A stretch of DNA of 64,000 nt, taken from assembly GCA_046563655.1 (NCBI GenBank), contig CM102287.1:6262001-6326000 (forward strand). Direction: 5' to 3'. The notes beneath the pieces are model-generated. The model saw only the letters and a list, made by a program, of their open reading frames with translations, was not told the origin of the DNA and made no database searches. The DNA is from Yuukianura sp. NJ FZ-2021. Its lineage: Eukaryota. Within the stretch, counting starts at the first letter, position 1. Every line of letters starts with the position of its first letter. Of the stretch, positions 2,788 to 18,807 are shown piece after piece. The position numbers and the translations under genes are program-made.

Positions 2788-4369
2788 TTAGGATCTTGTT
2801 CCAACTCGGTTATTCGCTGCGACGTTTTCTATGAAATCGGCTGCTGCAGATTGGCTTCTTGTTGATTGAATTCTTTTGGAAATAGATTTCATTCGTTTCT
2901 CTAGCAGATCGTCACCCAATAGCTGCTCAATGCTGCTCAGCAATTCTTTCTCTGTAGCCTCGTAGGGATGTAGTCGTAATCCAAGACCAGTTTCGTGTAT
3001 GCGCTGGGCATTATCTAAAGTTTCAAAAAAATGTTCTTCTTTTTGTCATGCTAAAAGTCCTTTAGCTAAATAATTTGGAGTTTTTCATTTTCATTTGAAA
3101 ACTCGCCTAGTTGATCCCACAGATGCCCTAGAACTAGCATCCGTTTGCCAAAGTAAAATGATTCTGTCACAGTGTTGTTCCCCCCATGGGTAATCACAAG
3201 GTCAACCAATGGCAGTACTGTCGTCTGGGGAACGCTATTCTCTCCCCACATATTGTCAGCCAGTTCAAGTTCATCCCCCAGGGGTCCTAAAATGTATTCA
3301 AAGTTATCAAAATCAATTATAATTTGATTTTATGAAATTTTAAGATACCTTTTGACACAATGAATCTGTTTGGTGATTTGGCAAGTATTTTGATGAGTCT
3401 CTTCATGAGGTCAATGTCTGCTGATCCAATTGTACCCATGGAAAAGTACACAAGTTTCCCGTGACCTGTCTTCAGTTTCTCCGGTATTTCAAAACTTCCT
3501 TCAGTATTTCTTATGAAGGTGTCGAAGCGATACCAATTCGGTGGATTTGGACGTAAGTAGGTGTAATCCAATTCGAGTGGGTACATGTATAAGTTTCCCC
3601 AGGGGGAAGGTTTGACAAACCTAGGAAAGTTGCATTCAATTTCGGGCCCACCATTTTCAATACTCCAGTTTGAGACCTCCTGTGTATAATTGTAAAAAAC
3701 CTTGTTGACAACATTGTCGTAAATTTGCCAAAGGCTTCGATCGCTGTCTTCTGCATATCCAGAACACGGTGGAGGGACGTTGACCCTGGAAATACCAACG
3801 GGGTTGTAGGAAACGCAAAGCATCCATGGAGTTCCTATCAAGACCAGGTTAGCTTATACATTGTATTATTTAATTGAAAGTAACTAATTAGTAAATTATT
3901 TTCGATTTTTAAATTAACTTATATATTTACCACTATCCATTAACGCTGGTACATGAATAACTTGATCAACGATGACAAAGTCCGGTTTTACTTTTGCCAT
4001 GATTTCTTTGAGCCTTCGATGTTGATTTTTTGTTTTGTTAAAACTTTCTATCCAAAGTTCAAGATACAACTTTGCATAACGTTCAATTGGCGGTAGTTGA
4101 GCTGCAGCACTGGATTTAGCCACAATTTGTACAAACTTATCACCTTCATTTTGTTTTTGTATTGCTTCATTTTTTTCTTCCTGTGATTCTGGAGCGTCCA
4201 GCAATTCTTCAATGAAACCTAGTGGTTCCAGTTTGCCTTTCCAACTCATGTGTGTGGCAAATACGATTTTGTGTTGCCTATTTCGTAATTGTTCGGCTAA
4301 TCCTATGCATGCATTCATGTGTCCTGTGGCGTCAAGAGGAGCAAACAGAAACGTGTAATGGTCTGCCAT
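2788..4369 (-). CDS. UDP-glycosyltransferase copy 2; exons 4369-3931, 3834-3349, 3286-3107, 3014-2788
   Basis: Same motifs and intron positions as copy 1; intron 3 has a GC donor (G|gcgagt); ends AANNRVGTRS*. Confidence 0.92.
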
Positions 4370-5479
4370 GGTTTTTGAAATTATGAGGAATTGAATTGAA
4401 GGGATTGCTCAAAATTGACTTCTAATTGAACGAATGATTCCAAACTTTTTTTGCAATATGGTTGTTGTGAATTATGCACTACTGGGTAGCACTAAAGCAT
4501 TACTTGCTTTTTATAAGCAAAATAATTCTGGCAAAAAAAATACTTACGTTTTAGATAACAAAAATTGCGTCAAAGTCCAAGATCATTCTAAATCGTAAGG
4601 AAGAACTCATCAAGCTTAGCAAGACTGTATCTTTTAAATTTGTTACAGTGACGTGTAGAATTAAAGTTGTTGATGTGGCTATGCTAAGGTTGCACAAAAT
4701 ATCCTACCAGAATAGAATTAAAAAACAGGAAACTCGAAAAACACGATGCTGGTTTAGTTGAATCCAAATAAATAAAATCAATGCAGCTACGTATGTGTGG
4801 AGGGAGTTTGTCTCCTGAGGTTAGCTCCAACGTTAAAGAAAATAATTTACAATTTAATTTACCATCACAGTATTTTAGAACACATCGTCAACAAAAGTGA
4901 ATAAGACACTTTTAAATTAAAACCAACACATGAGTCTAAATGAAAAAATGTATGCAGTGTAATTAAAAAATTTTAAATTCTGTACGTTTTTTTAAACTGA
5001 ACTGCAGCAAGGCTTAAAAATTTGCAGGAGTTTTTAACAAGCGGAGCTTTCGTTTTTTCTTTCATGTGGACGATGAAGTTACTTTATTGAAAACTTGTAG
5101 GAAACCTTGGAGTTTCCTGGAAATTTTTTGTAGGTCTTTTTACATGAATAGTGAGCTAACTTTTGTCTCATTTACAATGCTATAAAAAGCATTTTGTAAT
5201 TTGAATCTCACAAAATCTGGTTATTGGCTCACGAGTATCTTTCCTGGAAAATAGCACCATTTCAAACAAGGAAAACTTGCTAAAAAATATTCCTTAAAAA
5301 TTCAAAGATATTTAAAACATATCATTTTATTTTTTGTTGTGGACGGACTGAATTGCACGTAACCAAATCTTTGACGTATTGAGTTTGCATTTACTTAATC
5401 TACGTCAGAGTAGATAACTTACTCGGATGATGTTGCTAATTTATTAATTCATCGTACTTTTAATTCAGAAATTATAAAA

Positions 5480-6110
5480 CAATATATACGATCCTGTTTG
5501 CGTCCGTGGCGTGGATGCAGTGGGACATATGAATGAATGTATAGGAATAGCAGAGCAATTAAAAAACCTTGCTCACAATCAGCAAGTTGTTTTTGCTCGC
5601 CAATATCCTGGAAAGAAACATTAGAATTTTATTTTAAAAAAAAACTTATATCCATTCTTTTTAATTGTGCATTCGCATCAATTTTTTAGCTTTTCGCAGA
5701 CGAGAGTGCTGCCGCCATTATTGGTTGATCTTGTCATTAATTACCCACAGGGGAACAATACTGTGACAGAGTCCTTTTACTTTAGCAAATGGACGCTGGG
5801 ATGAACTAGGTACACATTTCGAAAGAAATCTGTTTAATGTATGCTTACTTATTCATTAAAAGATATTCGTTGTTTGGAAAAAACGTTAGATAATGCCCAG
5901 TATTCGCGGTAACGAAACCGGACTTAGATTGCGTCTACATCCTTACGAGGCTACTGAAACCGAAATTTCTTGGAAATGAATTTCAGGGATGAATTTCTTG
6001 AAAAGAAATCTATTTCCAAAAGAATTCAATCCACCAAAAATCACTAGGTAGTAACAGACTTGATTGAAAAGTTTGAAAAAAAAATCACTCCACTGACGCA
6101 ACAAACTAGA
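5480..6110 (+). pseudogene. Degraded, inverted UGT pseudogene lacking exon 2 and most of exon 1
   Basis: Frameshifted remnants read DAVGHMNECIGIAEQLKN (~5515-5570), QTRVLP..LVDLVI..GNNTVTESFYF (~5700-5785) and DNAQ..ETGLRLRLHPYEATE (~5890-5960), with stops and deletions. Confidence 0.85.
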
Positions 6111-14268: not shown

Positions 14269-15979
14269 TCAGCGAACGCTGTTGTTTATTGCGATGCTTT
14301 CAACAAGATCTGCAGCCGCTGATTGACTTTTGGTAGATTGAATTCTTTTGGAAATTGATTTCATTCTTCGTTCCAGCAGTTCGTCGCCCAATAGCTGCTC
14401 AATGCTGCTCAGCAGTTCTTCCTCACTAGCCTCATAGGGATGTAGTCGCAAGCCAAGTCCAGTTTCATGTATACGCTGGGCATTATCTAAAGTTCAAAAA
14501 AAAACTGCGTCTTTTTTGTAATTCTAAAAGTCCTCCAGCTAAACAATAATTGCGATTTAGCTCATTAGAAAAACTCGCCTAGTTGATCCCACAGATGCCC
14601 TAGAACTAGCATCCGTTTGCCAAAGTAGAATGATTCTGTCACAGTGTTGTTCCCCCCGTGGGTAATCACAAGGTCAACCAATGGCAGCACTCTCGTCTGG
14701 GGAACGCTATTTTCACCCCACATATTGTCAGCCAGTTCCAGCTCGTCTCCTCGGGGTCCTACAAATATTCAAAATTATTATAATAAAAGTAAAAACTTAA
14801 CTTTTAAGAAATGCACCTTTTGACACGATGAATCTGTTTGGTGATTTGGCAAGTATTTTGATGAGTCGCTTCATGAGGTCAATGTCTGCTGATCCAATTG
14901 TACCCATGGAAAAATACACAAGTTTCCCGTGACCTGTCTTCAGCTTTTCCGGGACTTCGAACTTTTCTTCAGTTTCTCTTACGAAAGCGTCGAAGCGATG
15001 CCAGTTTGGTGGGTTCGGCCGTTCTGAAGTGTAGTCCAATTCCATAGGATACATGTAGATGTTTGCATATTCGCTGTGCTTTAACCAGTATGGATAAGTA
15101 TACTCCAGTTCGGGTCCGCCGTTCTCGCTAACCCACGTCTTAAACTTTTGAAAAATGTCACGAAACACTCTTTTCCCCTTGTCTCGGTACTTCTTAAATT
15201 CTTCTTTGTCTCCGTCAACAGGATATCCAGAGAAGGCTGGAGCAACATTGTCGTCACACATCATAAGCGGGTTGCAAGAGCAGCTGAGTACCCACGGCAC
15301 ACCTGAAAAAAAAGTTTTCTAAATAAGTTAACGTAATAAAACAACTCTTGTTGGTATTAACCCTGATTCATAAATGCACGAAACGTAAAGTGTTCACTCG
15401 TGAAAATAAAACAGATCTCGGCGGAAATCTTGAACGTTGAACCGTTTCCGAAATAATTGGCGCCAACGGACGGCCAGACGGACAGACAATGTCGATGGAT
15501 ACAGTAATACAGTAGCCTTCGCTACTTCATTAATAGATGAGAGATTTTTGCTGACTTTTACCTTGATTCATTAATGCTGGAATTTGAACATCAAAATCTA
15601 CAATGACGACATCAGGTTTGACTCTGTTCATGATTTCTAGAAACGCCGTATTTTGTAACTGCAAGGATTCAAACATTTCTTCGTACATTTCCAAATGCAA
15701 CCTTTCGTGTCTTTCTATTGGTGGAAGTCGTGCTGCATGTGCTAACTTTCCAAACATTTGGGCAAACGTATCAGTATCTCCCGGTTCCTTTGTCTTTTCC
15801 GATCCTTGATACAATTCCTCAATGAACCCATGAACTTCTAGCTTTCCTTTCCAACTCATTGGAGTAGCAAAAACAACACGATGACCTCTGCTAAGCAACT
15901 GTTGTGCAATACCCGTACTAGCATTGATGTGACCCACTGCCTCAATAGCCGCAAACAAAAACGTGAACTTTTGAACCAT
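14269..15979 (-). CDS. UDP-glycosyltransferase copy 3; exons 15979-15562, 15302-14817, 14758-14579, 14484-14269
   Basis: GHINASTGIA, VYFSMGT and THGGNNTVTES motifs; same intron positions as copies 1-2; GC donor at intron 3. Confidence 0.92.
15390..15530 (+). mobile_element. Possible DINE-1/Helentron-like short element in UGT3 intron 1
   Basis: cggacggccagacggacagac microsatellite-like tract followed by a gtagc-cttc-gctac stem-loop; this intron is much longer than in the paralogs. Confidence 0.4.
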
Positions 15980-16232
15980 ATTGTGCGTGAAATTAAAAAA
16001 TTTGAAGCGTAAGGAATTTGCTTAATTTTTGACAGACTTTGGGTTCTACACTTTCGTAGACTTGCTTTTTGACACTGAAGTGGTGGACTACAACTGCAGG
16101 AAAATTATACATGGTGTAAATTATGTTTGCAATTCTTTCCATGAAAAGGATATGCGAATTTTTTGCAATAAAAATTCGCAAATCACGATGCAGATTAGTT
16201 CAAGGTTGTCTGAATTCCTACTATTATCTATA

Positions 16233-16936
16233 GTAAATAAGGTGTTCATCAGTTTGGAGTAGCAGAGGGGTGCGCCCGCGTGCAAAAAAGGGGCGCGGGG
16301 GCGGGTGCGGCATAATTAATTTAAATTTGGTAAAAAAAAATGCAAAAGTGAAAAATAAATGAATGTTGATAAAAATCAATACTTTTAATAATATAACTAA
16401 TTAATTTTAATTAGTGTTTAAATAATTAATATGGAAAATTGTTTTTTTTGTGTTTTTTAAGTTTCACGTTATATAAACAATCAGTTAAGTAAAAATTGAT
16501 TAAAACGTGTAATAATATAATATAATTAATGAATTTTAATTAATTAATGAATAATTAACATAAAAAATTGATTTTTTTAGAAACTTGAATGGAAAAATCG
16601 ACTTTTTATATTAATTATTCATTAATTAATTAAAATTCATTAATTATATTATATTATTACACGTTTTAACAAGTTTTATTTAATTACTTGTCTGTATAAC
16701 GTAAAACTAAAAAAAACACAAAAAAACCAATTTTCCATATTAATTATTTAAATACTAATTAAAATTAATTAATTATATTATTAAAAGTATTGATTTTTAT
16801 CAACATTCATTTATTTTTCACTTTTGCAATTTTTTTTACCAAATTTAAATTAATTATGCCGCACCCGCCCCCGCGCCCCTTTTTTGCACGCGGGCGCACC
16901 CCTCTGCTACTCCAAACTGATGAACACCTTATTTAC
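16233..16936. mobile_element. Foldback/MITE-like ~700-bp near-perfect palindrome
   Basis: Arms of ~345 bp are reverse complements (gtaaataaggtgttcatcagtttggagtagcagagggg... / ...cccctctgctactccaaactgatgaacaccttatttac) around a short spacer near 16580-16594. Confidence 0.9.
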
Positions 16937-17306
16937 CACAAATAGTACTGAACAACACTATTAGTTATCAGTTATTAAAACAACCTTGGATTAGCTTACT
17001 TAAGTGCCACGTTCTATAAAATGAGCTAAATAAAAAGATTAATATGTCATCCATCTTGACAATATGAATTTTTATAGTTACTAATTATAATTACCTAAGT
17101 ACTTTTTGTTAGTTTAGATTTGGAATGCGATGAAGTTTTGATTTTACAGCTAAGTTTTGCGAAACCTTACCCTAAAAAGGCCCCAGTTTTTCAAATAATT
17201 TCTCAGCACCAAATCGTACCACCAGATTAGTGAAATACACTTTGCCTGAAATAGCTAAAGAAGTTTGTTAAAGAAATTCATCAAAGACAATTTTTCCCCC
17301 GCTTAC

Positions 17307-18407
17307 CTTGATTCATTAGTGCAGGAATTTGCACCCCCAAATCCAGAACGACGACATCAGGTTTGACTCTGCTCATGATTTCTAGAAATGCGGCGTTTTG
17401 AAACTTCACGGATTCAAACAATTCGTTGTACATTTCCAAAAACAAGTTTTCGTGTCTTTCTATTGTCGGAAGTCTTGCTGCATATGCAAATTTTCCTACA
17501 ATTTGGACCCATGGATTTGTATCTCCTTGCTCCTGCGTCTTTTCGGTTGAGGTAAGGTTTAACGATCGTCATTGTAGCCGCACAGTGTAGCCGCCGGCGG
17601 CCATCTTGAGTGGCTACAATGGGTGGCGACACTTGTGCGGCAACATTTGTAGCCGCTCGTGGAAAATTTTGCCTTGTAGCCACCATGTTGTAGCCGCACA
17701 TGCTAAATAAAACTGGCAACACTGCTTAACAATTTAAGATAACCTAACCTATAGACGCAATCAGTATTGCGAACATTAAACAACGTAACCTACAGACGCA
17801 ATCAGTATTGCGAACTTTAAAAAACCTAACTCCGCGCCTTCGGCGCGGGAAAATATAACAGGATTTTGGATTTCCTGAATCAAAAAGTAAAGGTTGCCAA
17901 TCTAATTATTTTTTTGTTGTTTCATTCAGAGAATTAGCCTTTATTTTCCCGCGCCGAAGGCGCGGCGTTAGGTTAGGTTAGCACTTGACAATAGTAATTA
18001 GATTCGAGGATTTCGTTTACGTTGACTGGCCAAATTCTAAAACATTGTTGCCAGCGTTATTTCGCATATGCGGCTACAGTAGAGTGGCGACAAGGGAAAT
18101 TTTCTCACAGGCGGCTACAAATGTTGCCGCTCTGGCGTAGCCACCCATTGTAGCCACTCAAGATGGCCGCCGGCGGCTACACTGTGCGGCTACAATGACG
18201 ATCGTTAAACCTTACCTCAACCGTCTTTTCCGAAGTCTGATACAATTCTTCAATGAACCCATGAACTTCTAGTTTTCCTTTCCAACTCATTGGAGTCGCA
18301 AAAACAACGCGATGACCTCTGCTAAGCAACTGTTGTGCAATTCCGGTACAGGCATTGATGTGACCCGCTGCTTCAACAGCAGCAAACAAAAACGTAAACT
18401 TTGACAT
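17307..18407 (-). CDS. Orphan UGT first exon (exon 1b), split by a MITE; candidate alternative first exon of UGT copy 3
   Basis: With the insert removed the frame is open: MSKFTFLFAAVEAAGHINAC...SEKTQEQGD...VQIPALMNQG, ending at an intact phase-1 donor G|gtaagc; TATA-like motif ~110 bp upstream; no exon 2-4 of its own. Confidence 0.75.
17545..18222. mobile_element. MITE with long TIRs and 8-bp TSD (Merlin- or Mutator-like)
   Basis: TSD gtcttttc at 17537-17544 and 18223-18230; first ~83 bp of the TIRs are perfect, imperfect out to ~175 bp; GG termini; internal taacctaacct and ccgcgccttcggcgcgg hairpins. Confidence 0.93.
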
Positions 18408-18807
18408 TTCAATTGAAATACAAGGCGTCTATATTTTTAATTTTGCACTATGTTGTGCTTTTTGGATTTTGTGCTATTTTATAAATTTCAGCTCAAAATC
18501 TCTTCCGCTTCCTTTTTATACCGAGTGTGATAATTCCAGCAAGAATGAAAACGAGTGCGGTTTTTGTCTACAGATTCTAAGCACGGTCACGATGCTTTTT
18601 GTCTAGTTCGCACGCACTGGAATGATTAGGCCGAAATTTTGATTAAATAGTTACGTAAAGTCTTTTAACATTTTTGATATTGATGCGATAATTACAATCT
18701 ACAGTTAAGTTAACGATAATAATCTAGGTTAAATTCTAGGGCTGTTAAAAATCTTTTCATAATTCAAAACCAATTTTGAAGTGTGCTAGACTTTCTCCGT
18801 TGTAATC

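What the first reader, a model, noticed from the sequence alone, without database searches (positions are those of the whole stretch)
17531..18230. Introner-like MITE whose TIR carries a splice donor that would excise it in frame
Seen: the TIR begins ggttgag|GTAAGG, a near-consensus 5' splice site 7 nt inside the element. Because it is in the TIR, it is present whichever way the element inserts. On the coding strand the donor (18215) is phase 0 after ...SEKTVE. Two AGs just past the far end are also phase 0: AAG in the TSD (17541-17539) and CAG (17535-17533). Splicing would give SEKTVE-TQEQG or SEKTVE-EQG instead of SEKTQEQG, leaving the ORF intact. Known: introner transposons create introns by supplying one splice site and co-opting the other from the target. 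Inference: this may be intron gain in progress. The weak polypyrimidine tract is a caveat.
Basis: partly seen in the sequence, partly recalled or inferred. Interest (0 to 1): 0.85.

Follow-up and report, generated by a model that had tools for sequence, protein, structure and literature searches.

The report
Young transposon insertion in glycosyltransferase exon
A small mobile DNA element has recently landed inside the coding part of a detoxification-type enzyme gene; its ends carry a sequence that looks like an intron start, but nothing yet shows that the cell splices it out.

Summary
A 678-bp non-coding element (17545-18222) has an 83-nt perfect, 192-nt overall, terminal inverted repeat and a perfect 8-bp target-site duplication. 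It interrupts a minus-strand first exon of a bacterial-type UDP-glycosyltransferase (UGT) cluster. AG|GTAAGG lies 7 nt inside each terminus. AGs at 17539 and 17533 would leave +9 or +3 nt, so the frame is kept.

New here: the family is multi-copy in public DNA runs. A DNA contig from one sample joins 17545 to 18232, skipping exactly 686 nt (678+8). So an empty site exists and the insertion is young and probably polymorphic. The host exon has no exons 2-4 of its own. It looks like an alternative or orphan first exon upstream of the next UGT gene, yet it evolved under purifying selection (dN/dS 0.28).

Splicing could not be tested, because no RNA run was listed. Several features argue against clean excision:
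- the acceptors are weak;
- a better-looking acceptor sits inside the element;
- the transcript would fold at -431 kcal/mol, burying the donor in the stem;
- local introns are 58-96 nt and AT-rich (8 of 9);
- the 7-nt offset of the donor preserves the frame only at favourable sites.

Verdict: an ordinary young MITE insertion. Intron gain remains possible (about 15%) but unsupported.

The parts
17545..18222 (.). Non-autonomous, foldback-like TIR DNA transposon (MITE), 678 bp
   Evidence: The ends were defined by the TIR. They are supported by loose ends of other copies that diverge just before 17545 in X3, X5 and X6 (table 7). The whole element is 72.5% self-reverse-complementary. Its ORFs have no Pfam match.
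17537..17544 (.). Target-site duplication, left copy (GTCTTTTC)
   Evidence: On the coding strand this reads GAAAAGAC and holds the candidate acceptor AAG (17541-17539).
18223..18230 (.). Target-site duplication, right copy (GTCTTTTC)
17545..17736 (+). Left TIR arm (about 192 nt; the first 83 nt pair perfectly with the right arm)
   Evidence: One search gives the arms as 17544-17735 and 18032-18223, one base off because the flanking C/G also pair.
18031..18222 (-). Right TIR arm
18210..18217 (-). Donor-like motif AG|GTAAGG on the coding strand; the G of GT is at 18215, in phase 0
   Evidence: 7 of 8 match to AGGTAAGT; real donors of the 9 UGT introns plus the exon's own donor match 5 to 7 of 8.
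17550..17557 (+). Mirror copy of the donor-like motif in the other TIR. It would serve if the element sat in the other orientation.
   Evidence: Follows from the perfect 83-nt TIR.
17533..17541 (-). Two candidate phase-0 acceptors: AAG (17541-17539, inside the TSD) and CAG (17535-17533)
   Evidence: There are 10 of 17 pyrimidines upstream of the AAG, with A at -3. There are 7 of 17 upstream of the CAG, with C at -3.
17875..17894 (-). Better-looking competing acceptor inside the element: ACCTTTACTTTTTGATTCAG|G
   Evidence: It has 13 of 17 pyrimidines, the highest of all AGs scanned between the donor and 17200, and lies 341 nt from the donor. By my own reading of the sequence, use of it leads to a stop inside the element.
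18223..18407 (-). 5' part of the interrupted first exon (MSKFTF...YQTSEKT)
17307..17544 (-). 3' part of the interrupted first exon (EKTQEQGDT...ALMNQ), ending at its own donor AG|GTAAGC (G at 17306)
17823..17974 (.). Inner 152-nt inverted repeat (33-nt arms, 97% complementary) with far higher read depth than the rest of the element. It is probably a nested or shared mini-element.
   Evidence: pair I2. table 2: summed depth of 128,695-161,343 in X1 in the two bins that hold its arms (17798-17854 and 17912-17968), against 5,592-89,829 in the other bins that lie wholly inside the element; weak hit to MIR2934 at 35 bits, below the gathering score of 100, so not a member.
17573..17697 (+). Four subterminal TGTAGCCGC repeats, mirrored by four on the minus strand at 18070-18194
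   Evidence: 8 matches in the window, all inside the element, against 0.14 expected.
14269..15979 (-). Next UGT gene (gene C, 4 exons). Its exon 2 (starting at 15302) is the only downstream exon 2 that the interrupted exon could join.

Best explanation
This is a young insertion, probably still segregating, of a high-copy non-autonomous TIR DNA transposon (a MITE or foldback-type element with an 8-bp TSD).

Where it landed: a length-variable acidic loop encoded by an extra first exon of a tandem cluster of bacterial-type (MGT/YjiC-like) UDP-glycosyltransferase genes. The genome is eukaryotic, probably that of a mite or another small arthropod.

The donor-like GGTAAGG belongs to the terminal sequence that the family keeps at both ends, presumably for its transposase. 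It is not shown to be a splicing device.

Likely consequence: a null or strongly reduced allele of this one first exon, since a stop follows 14 codons into the element. That loss would be tolerable because the cluster is redundant and the empty allele is still present.

Shown: the anatomy, the insertion in a coding frame, the multi-copy status and the existence of an empty-site DNA form.
Inferred: that the empty form is an allele, that the exon is an alternative first exon of the next gene, and that the allele is mostly non-functional.
For: Transposon anatomy:
- 83-nt perfect and 192-nt overall TIR, with a perfect 8-bp TSD.
- 8 subterminal TGTAGCCGC repeats.
- No protein family in its ORFs.

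Multi-copy status:
- 978 contigs of X1 were laid on the 1701-nt stretch.
- In X1, summed word depth over the bins that lie wholly inside the element is 5,592-161,343, against 146-250 in most flank bins.
- Loose ends of other copies start at 17545.

Empty site (table 5):
- A joint 17545->18232 skips 686 nt (678+8), in 1 contig each of X1 (depth 154.9) and X3 (40.3). These are 2 of the 4 runs laid, both from one sample.
- Its depth equals that of the single-copy flank.
- The same contig matches 17000-17545 with 6 other letters and 2 gaps.
- At 17457, 17458 and 17495, all X1 depth carries the non-window letter.

Host exon:
- It is intact once the element and one TSD copy are removed.
- dN/dS is 0.28 against gene C exon 1, with dS 0.42.
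- The insertion site lies in a stretch where the paralogs differ by 4-7 residue indels.
- Exons 2-4 occur 3 times in the window, exon 1 occurs 4 times.

Against clean excision:
- Weak far-end acceptors and a better-looking internal one.
- Hairpin of -431 kcal/mol, z = -44.
- No AG in the last 30 nt of the element.
- Local introns are 58-96 nt in 8 of 9, with GC 0.16-0.38. The candidate is 677 or 683 nt at GC 0.45 (the script mis-set the start of intron A2, which is 67 nt).
Against: - The donor-like motif is as good as or better than every real donor in the cluster (7 of 8, against 5-7 of 8). It is rare by chance (about 0.005).
- The frame is preserved.
- The site lies in a loop where 1-3 extra residues look tolerable.
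- The donor is transcribed about 650 nt before its complement, so U1 could bind before the stem forms (inference).
- Maize Ds1, a non-autonomous element of the Ac/Ds system, can supply splice donors and acceptors from within 35 bp of its termini when it sits in an exon. I saw this in passages of PMC5432752 citing Wessler 1991.
- No contig that carries the window's own flank-to-element junction was listed in any of the 4 runs laid. The insertion allele itself was therefore not seen independently.
- The empty-site evidence comes from one sample only.
Confidence: 0.7

Rival explanations
1. One reading: the element behaves as an introner. U1 uses the TIR donor at 18215. The spliceosome uses the AAG in the TSD or the CAG six nt further on. 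The mRNA then keeps its frame with 3 extra residues or a Q-to-VE change, and the insertion is a nascent intron.
For: - Donor motif matches 7 of 8 and is present in both TIRs.
- Both AGs are in phase.
- The insertion lies in an indel-tolerant loop of an exon with dN/dS 0.28.
- The mechanism has precedent: introners that supply one splice site and take the other from the TSD, and TIR DNA transposons as about 82% of classified introner families (passages of PMC11282704 and PMC12130899).
- TIR pairing that brings intron ends together is described for tunicate MITE-derived introns (PMC11282704).
Against: - No RNA data.
- The acceptors have 10 of 17 and 7 of 17 pyrimidines upstream, and purines directly before the first AG.
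- An internal acceptor has 13 of 17.
- The donor is buried in an 83-bp perfect stem.
- The candidate intron is about ten times the usual local length and more GC-rich.
- Because the donor is 7 nt inside the element, excision never restores the original message. It keeps the frame only when an AG falls at the right place in the TSD or flank (inference from the sequence). That is not the design of a specialised introner.
- The empty allele is present at full single-copy depth in the only sample seen.
- More than 98% of introner-bearing species in the 2025 survey are aquatic, unicellular or fungal (passage of PMC12130899).
Confidence: 0.15
2. The TIR donor is used but pairs with an acceptor other than the far-end AGs. 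Candidates are the internal CAG at 17875, the TTTCAG at 17246, or exon 2 of gene C. This would give aberrant or alternative mRNAs, as in Ds-type exonization, rather than clean excision.
For: - The best pyrimidine tracts after the donor are at 17875, 17246 and 17255.
- Ds and Ds1 give several isoforms from terminal donors, many with premature stops (passages of PMC5432752).
Against: No RNA data. The ranking of acceptors rests only on pyrimidine counts and ignores branch points and RNA structure.
Confidence: 0.25
3. The empty-site contig is not an allele but a near-identical paralogous copy elsewhere in the genome. In that case the insertion could be fixed and older than it looks.
For: - The UGT exon family is duplicated several times in the window.
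- Contigs cannot be assigned to loci.
- Only one sample shows the joint.
Against: - The contig matches 300 nt of non-coding flank (17000-17298) as well as the exon, with 6 differences and 2 gaps in 546 nt.
- Its depth equals the single-copy flank depth.
- At its three SNP positions no X1 contig carries the window's letters, whereas a second locus should add them.
- The 83-nt perfect TIR and the perfect TSD fit a recent insertion.
Confidence: 0.1

Closest known systems
Introners: intron-generating transposons of the Micromonas type, and the families surveyed by Gozashti et al. 2022 and 2025
   Same: A short non-autonomous TIR/TSD element sits in coding sequence. One splice-site-like motif lies in the element and the other possible site lies in the TSD. 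The element belongs to a multi-copy family.
   Different: - Defining evidence is missing here: spliced copies, and many copies that are introns.
- The donor lies 7 nt inside the element, so excision would leave a 3- or 9-nt scar and would be frame-neutral only at favourable sites.
- The acceptor is weak.
- The host is probably a terrestrial arthropod, a group in which the surveys I read report almost none. In PMC9860276, introners occur in only two animal groups among animals and land plants. In PMC12130899, the words arthropod, Acari and arachnid occur 0 times in the main text; its datasets were not seen.
Maize Ds/Ds1 (Ac/Ds system) insertions in exons that are spliced from the transcript through donor and acceptor sites near their termini
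   Same: A non-autonomous DNA transposon with subterminal repeats and splice-donor sequences within the first 35 nt of its end. The outcome is leaky or alternative rather than a clean intron. (That Ac/Ds is a hAT-superfamily system with 8-bp TSDs is recalled, not from a call.)
   Different: For Ds1, splicing was shown experimentally (Wessler 1991, known to me only through its citation in PMC5432752; the paper itself is not held). Here nothing is shown. This element starts with GG, not the hAT-type terminus (the terminus consensus is recalled, not tested), and has far longer TIRs.
MITE-derived non-canonical introns of the tunicate Fritillaria borealis
   Same: TIR pairing could bring the two ends of the inserted element together in the RNA. 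TSD-like repeats lie at the junctions.
   Different: Those introns have non-canonical ends and rely on a changed spliceosome (passage of PMC11282704). This case would use canonical GT..AG, and nothing is known about its spliceosome.
Ordinary MITEs and foldback elements that cause insertional polymorphism in gene families
   Same: All features tested: TIR, TSD, no coding capacity, many copies, an empty site, and insertion into a redundant detoxification-type gene cluster.
   Different: None that was tested. The only distinctive point is the good donor motif in the terminus.

Membership tests
MITE / non-autonomous TIR DNA transposon | Terminal inverted repeats | tested here: met
   83 nt perfect, 192 nt at 88%.
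MITE / non-autonomous TIR DNA transposon | Target-site duplication flanking the element | tested here: met
   GTCTTTTC on both sides. The empty-site joint skips exactly 678+8 nt.
MITE / non-autonomous TIR DNA transposon | No transposase coding capacity; small size | tested here: met
   678 bp. ORFs are at most 102 aa with no Pfam match.
MITE / non-autonomous TIR DNA transposon | Many copies in the genome | tested here: met
   hundreds of contigs and very high summed depth over the element in X1, X3 and X5, plus loose ends with differing flanks at 17545. Only 1 copy lies in the 64-kb window.
Introner (intron-generating transposon) | Copies are removed from transcripts by the spliceosome | not testable with these tools
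Introner (intron-generating transposon) | Many similar copies that are introns of unrelated genes | not testable with these tools
   No genome is held. There is one copy in the window. Scans of three collections gave only 19-mer chance matches or nothing.
Introner (intron-generating transposon) | The element carries or co-opts both splice sites so that excision leaves a working message | tested here: inconclusive
   The donor motif is good. The acceptor comes only from the TSD or flank and is weak. Excision would leave +3 or +9 nt, which is in frame at this site.
hAT superfamily | 8-bp TSD | tested here: met
hAT superfamily | Short TIRs with a YARNG-type terminus (consensus recalled from memory) | tested here: not met
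   The terminus is GGTTGAGG and the TIR is 192 nt. The superfamily is therefore left open; a Mutator-like or Merlin-like element with an 8-bp TSD is equally possible from memory.
hAT superfamily | Related autonomous copy encoding a hAT transposase | not testable with these tools
   No genome is held.
MGT/YjiC-type UDP-glycosyltransferase (host gene) | Sequence similarity to the family across the protein | tested here: met
   Exon 2 of gene C has 40 hits at E<=1e-5. 39 of the 40 carry PF00201, PF04101 and PF06722, and many are named MGT family or YjiC. The best named eukaryotic hits are from the mites Oppia nitens and Brevipalpus obovatus, at 39-47% identity. Single exons alone gave no Pfam hit.

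The most novel reading that the evidence does not exclude
A high-copy MITE of a terrestrial arthropod, probably a mite, carries a strong 5' splice site in both TIRs. When it lands in an exon next to a suitable AG, it is spliced out in frame. The segregating insertion in this UGT first exon would then be an intron caught at birth, in an animal lineage where introners are essentially unreported.
Probability: 0.12. Interest if true: 0.7.

Novelty: new member of a known kind. Interest (0 to 1): 0.3.

Why it matters
If the element were spliced, it would be a rare live example of intron birth in a land animal. Both the filled and the empty allele would be available for comparison, so the fitness cost and the splicing efficiency of a newborn intron could be measured directly.

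As the evidence stands, it is one more young MITE insertion that knocks out or weakens one member of a redundant detoxification-type gene cluster. That is useful as a marker of recent transposon activity and as a presence/absence polymorphism, but it is not surprising.

Tried and rejected
- **RNA evidence.** The look-up of sequencing runs (kind any) listed no RNA holder. This says nothing about expression.
- **Whole genome.** None is held, so other copies could not be surveyed.
- **Other copies in public collections.**
  - A 19-mer of the TIR gave 3 metagenome loci, but blastn showed that only the 19-mer matches. These are chance hits, not copies.
  - The 24-mer gave 0 matches in genome contigs and 0 in viral contigs.
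- **Annotated gene model.** I looked for a model that would show how this exon is joined.
  - The 79-aa 3' exon part found nothing among longer proteins at E<=1e-5.
  - Exon 2 of gene C found only relatives at 67% identity or less.
  - So this species' own proteins are not in that database.
- **Earlier findings of the scan.** Nothing was found by place, by sequence or by words.
- **Rfam.** Only sub-threshold hairpin-like hits.
- **Runs X5 and X6.** No empty-site joint was listed for either, and table 5 was cut (12 rows not shown). No statement on these runs is possible.
- **Assembly artefact.** Considered and rejected, because a perfect 8-bp TSD and an exact 686-nt difference from the empty form are the signature of transposition.
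- **hAT membership.** Considered and left open, because the terminus does not fit the recalled consensus.

Full report
**What is there**

Window 17545-18222 is a 678-bp element.
- Its two ends are perfect inverted repeats for 83 nt and 88% complementary over 192 nt.
- Overall it is 72.5% self-reverse-complementary, so it is a foldback-like MITE.
- Its first 24 nt occur exactly twice in the window, once at each end on opposite strands, against 0 expected.
- It is flanked by a perfect 8-bp duplication, GTCTTTTC, at 17537-17544 and 18223-18230.
- It holds eight TGTAGCCGC motifs, four near each end, against 0.14 expected in the whole window.
- Its ORFs are short and match no Pfam family.
- An inner 152-nt inverted repeat (17823-17974) has much higher read depth than the rest and may be a nested or shared mini-element.

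**Where it sits**

The window is eukaryotic: no prokaryote genome is held for it and its genes have short GT..AG introns.

Three complete four-exon genes lie on the minus strand, at 148-1698, 2788-4408 and 14269-15979. They encode UDP-glycosyltransferases of the bacterial MGT/YjiC type.
- The best named eukaryotic relatives are from the mites Oppia nitens and Brevipalpus obovatus, at 39-47% identity.
- This fits the proposed bacterial origin of mite UGTs (passages of PMC4943190 citing Ahn et al. 2014).
- That the host is a mite or another small arthropod is my inference from these hits.

The element interrupts a fourth first exon (18407-17307, minus strand).
- tblastn finds exons 2, 3 and 4 three times each, but exon 1 four times, plus a decayed remnant on the plus strand at 5508-6074.
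- So the interrupted exon has no downstream exons of its own before gene C's first exon begins at 15979.
- It ends in the same phase and with the same kind of donor (CAAG|GTAAGC) as gene C exon 1.
- With the element and one TSD copy removed, it is an open 138-codon frame.
- Against gene C exon 1 it shows dN 0.119, dS 0.422 and dN/dS 0.28. The two complete genes A and B give 0.27.
- I therefore read it as an alternative first exon of gene C, or as the still well-kept remnant of a gene. This is inferred, not shown.
- The insertion site falls in an acidic stretch where the four paralogs differ by indels of 4-7 residues.

All are confirmed.
- On the coding strand the exon reads ...SEKTVE|GTAAGG, with the G of GT at 18215 in phase 0.
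- The AAG ending at 17539 lies inside the TSD copy. The CAG ends at 17533.
- These give candidate introns of 677 or 683 nt out of the 686 inserted, leaving +9 or +3 nt.
- If the element is retained, the frame stops 14 codons after SEKT.

**Chance**
- A match of 7 of 8 or better to AGGTAAGT is found at 30 of 128,000 positions in the window. That gives about 0.005 for one in the first 20 nt of a given terminus.
- The motif is therefore unusual for one family taken at random. It is less so for a family singled out because of it.
- Frame preservation is roughly a 1-in-3 event.

**DNA reads**

The single run search gave six DNA holders and no RNA holder. I laid four of the six (X1, X3, X5, X6) on 17000-18700.
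- The family is multi-copy.
  - 978, 379 and 210 contigs of X1, X3 and X5 were laid.
  - In X1, summed depth over the bins that lie wholly inside the element is 5,592-161,343, against 146-250 in most flank bins.
  - Loose ends with unrelated flanks start at 17545. Many copies also diverge after 17592.
  - So the outer 48 nt, which include the donor-like motif, are shared by several subfamilies.
- One contig each in X1 (depth 154.9) and X3 (depth 40.3) joins 17545 to 18232.
  - X1 and X3 come from one sample, so this is one observation.
  - The joint skips 686 nt, exactly the element plus one TSD copy.
  - At the join the contig differs from the window by what amounts to a synonymous TCG-to-TCC change (my reading of the joint coordinates).
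- That contig matches 17000-17545 with 6 other letters and 2 gaps.
- Its depth equals the single-copy flank depth.
- At 17457, 17458 and 17495, all X1 depth carries the contig's letters rather than the window's.
- I conclude that an empty site exists in DNA, most likely as an allele, and that the insertion is recent. The perfect 83-nt TIR and perfect TSD agree.
- Caveats:
  - contigs drop variants;
  - one sample only;
  - no contig carrying the window's own flank-to-element junction was listed;
  - no empty-site joint was listed for X5 or X6, and 12 rows of the joint table were not shown.
- A second joint (18402->17000, "goes back 1403") belongs to the same contig. It fits a haplotype that also lacks the second MITE at 16222-16947. 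That is arithmetic inference only.

**Can it be spliced?**

No RNA could be examined, so this rests on indirect features.

In favour:
- The donor motif (7 of 8) is at least as good as the ten real donors of the cluster, which match 5-7 of 8.
- It is present in either orientation.
- The site is in a tolerant loop.

Against:
- The element has no AG in its last 30 nt, so the acceptor must come from the target.
- The two candidates have 10 of 17 and 7 of 17 pyrimidines upstream, and purines directly before the first AG.
- An acceptor inside the element at 17875 (ACCTTTACTTTTTGATTCAG|G) has 13 of 17, the best of all AGs between the donor and 17200. By my reading of the sequence, use of it runs into a stop.
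- The transcript of 17500-18270 folds to -431 kcal/mol (z = -44), with the donor inside the long perfect stem.
- Eight of the nine UGT introns are 58-96 nt and one is 259 nt, with GC 0.16-0.38. The candidate is 677-683 nt at GC 0.45 (with intron A2 corrected to 67 nt).
- The donor lies 7 nt inside the element. Excision can never restore the original message. It is frame-neutral only when an AG lies at the right offset in the TSD or flank (inference). This is unlike the described introner design.

**Comparison with what is known**
- Introners are transposons that are spliced out of exons by carrying or co-opting splice signals. In Micromonas each supplies one site and the TSD the other (passages of PMC12130899 and PMC11282704).
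- TIR DNA transposons make up about 82% of classified introner families.
- Among animals and land plants, the 2022 survey found introners in only two animal groups (PMC9860276).
- More than 98% of introner-bearing species in the 2025 survey are aquatic, unicellular or fungal. I did not see the datasets of either paper.
- The closest mechanistic analogue is maize Ds1, which provides donors and acceptors within 35 bp of its termini when it sits in an exon. I know this from passages of PMC5432752 citing Wessler 1991; the 1991 paper is not held.
- Huff et al. 2016 on Micromonas and Aureococcus is recalled only.
- The element meets every tested criterion of a MITE. The two defining criteria of an introner (spliced copies, many copies that are introns) could not be tested.
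- The 8-bp TSD fits hAT, but the GG terminus and long TIRs do not fit the recalled hAT consensus. The superfamily is left open.

**Verdict**

The element is a real, young, probably segregating MITE insertion in a coding exon.

The idea that it is an intron being born is not excluded, but it has no direct support and several structural features weigh against it. I put it at about 0.12-0.15.

The most likely state is a disrupted or leaky allele of one redundant UGT first exon. Interest is modest unless RNA from carriers shows the predicted junction.

Noticed in passing
window 16222-16947: A second, unrelated MITE: 237-nt TIRs at 97%, an AT-rich core with its own inner inverted repeats, and GC-rich subterminal blocks. 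It lies between the interrupted exon and gene C. A read contig joint (18402->17000) fits a haplotype that lacks it too, but this is arithmetic inference only.
   Followed up: partly
window 17823-17974: An inner 152-nt inverted repeat of the element has much higher summed read depth than the rest of the element, in all three organism runs. This suggests a separate, far more abundant mini-MITE nested in or shared with it. It gives a weak hairpin-type hit to MIR2934 at 35 bits, below the gathering score of 100.
   Followed up: partly
window 15582-15557 and 15382-15357 (minus strand): Intron 1 of gene C is 259 nt, against 67 and 96 nt in genes A and B. It holds a second, 21-of-26-identical copy of the exon-1 end plus donor, 200 nt downstream of the first. 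This looks like an insertion flanked by a long direct repeat that lengthened the intron. The origin is unknown.
   Followed up: partly
window 3106-3015 and 14578-14487 (minus strand): Intron 3 of UGT genes B and C appears to start with GC (G|GCGAGT), where gene A has GT (G|GTTCGC). These would be GC-AG introns if the exon joins inferred from the protein alignment are right.
   Followed up: no
window 5508-6074 (plus strand): Decayed fragments of a further UGT copy (pieces like exons 1, 3 and 4, at 50-71% identity) lie on the opposite strand.
   Followed up: no
window 17740-17760 and 17962-17980: Short runs of TTAGG/CCTAA units lie inside the element, and read loose ends carry TAGGTTAGGTTAGGTTA. 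From memory, TTAGG is the usual arthropod telomere unit. I could not tell whether this means anything.
   Followed up: no
window 17545-17592 and 18175-18222: Read contigs join 17592 to 18175, skipping 582 nt, in X1, X3 and X5 (2 contigs each). Many copies also diverge after 17592. So mini-derivatives of about 96 nt, and subfamilies with other cores, share the outer 48 nt.
   Followed up: no
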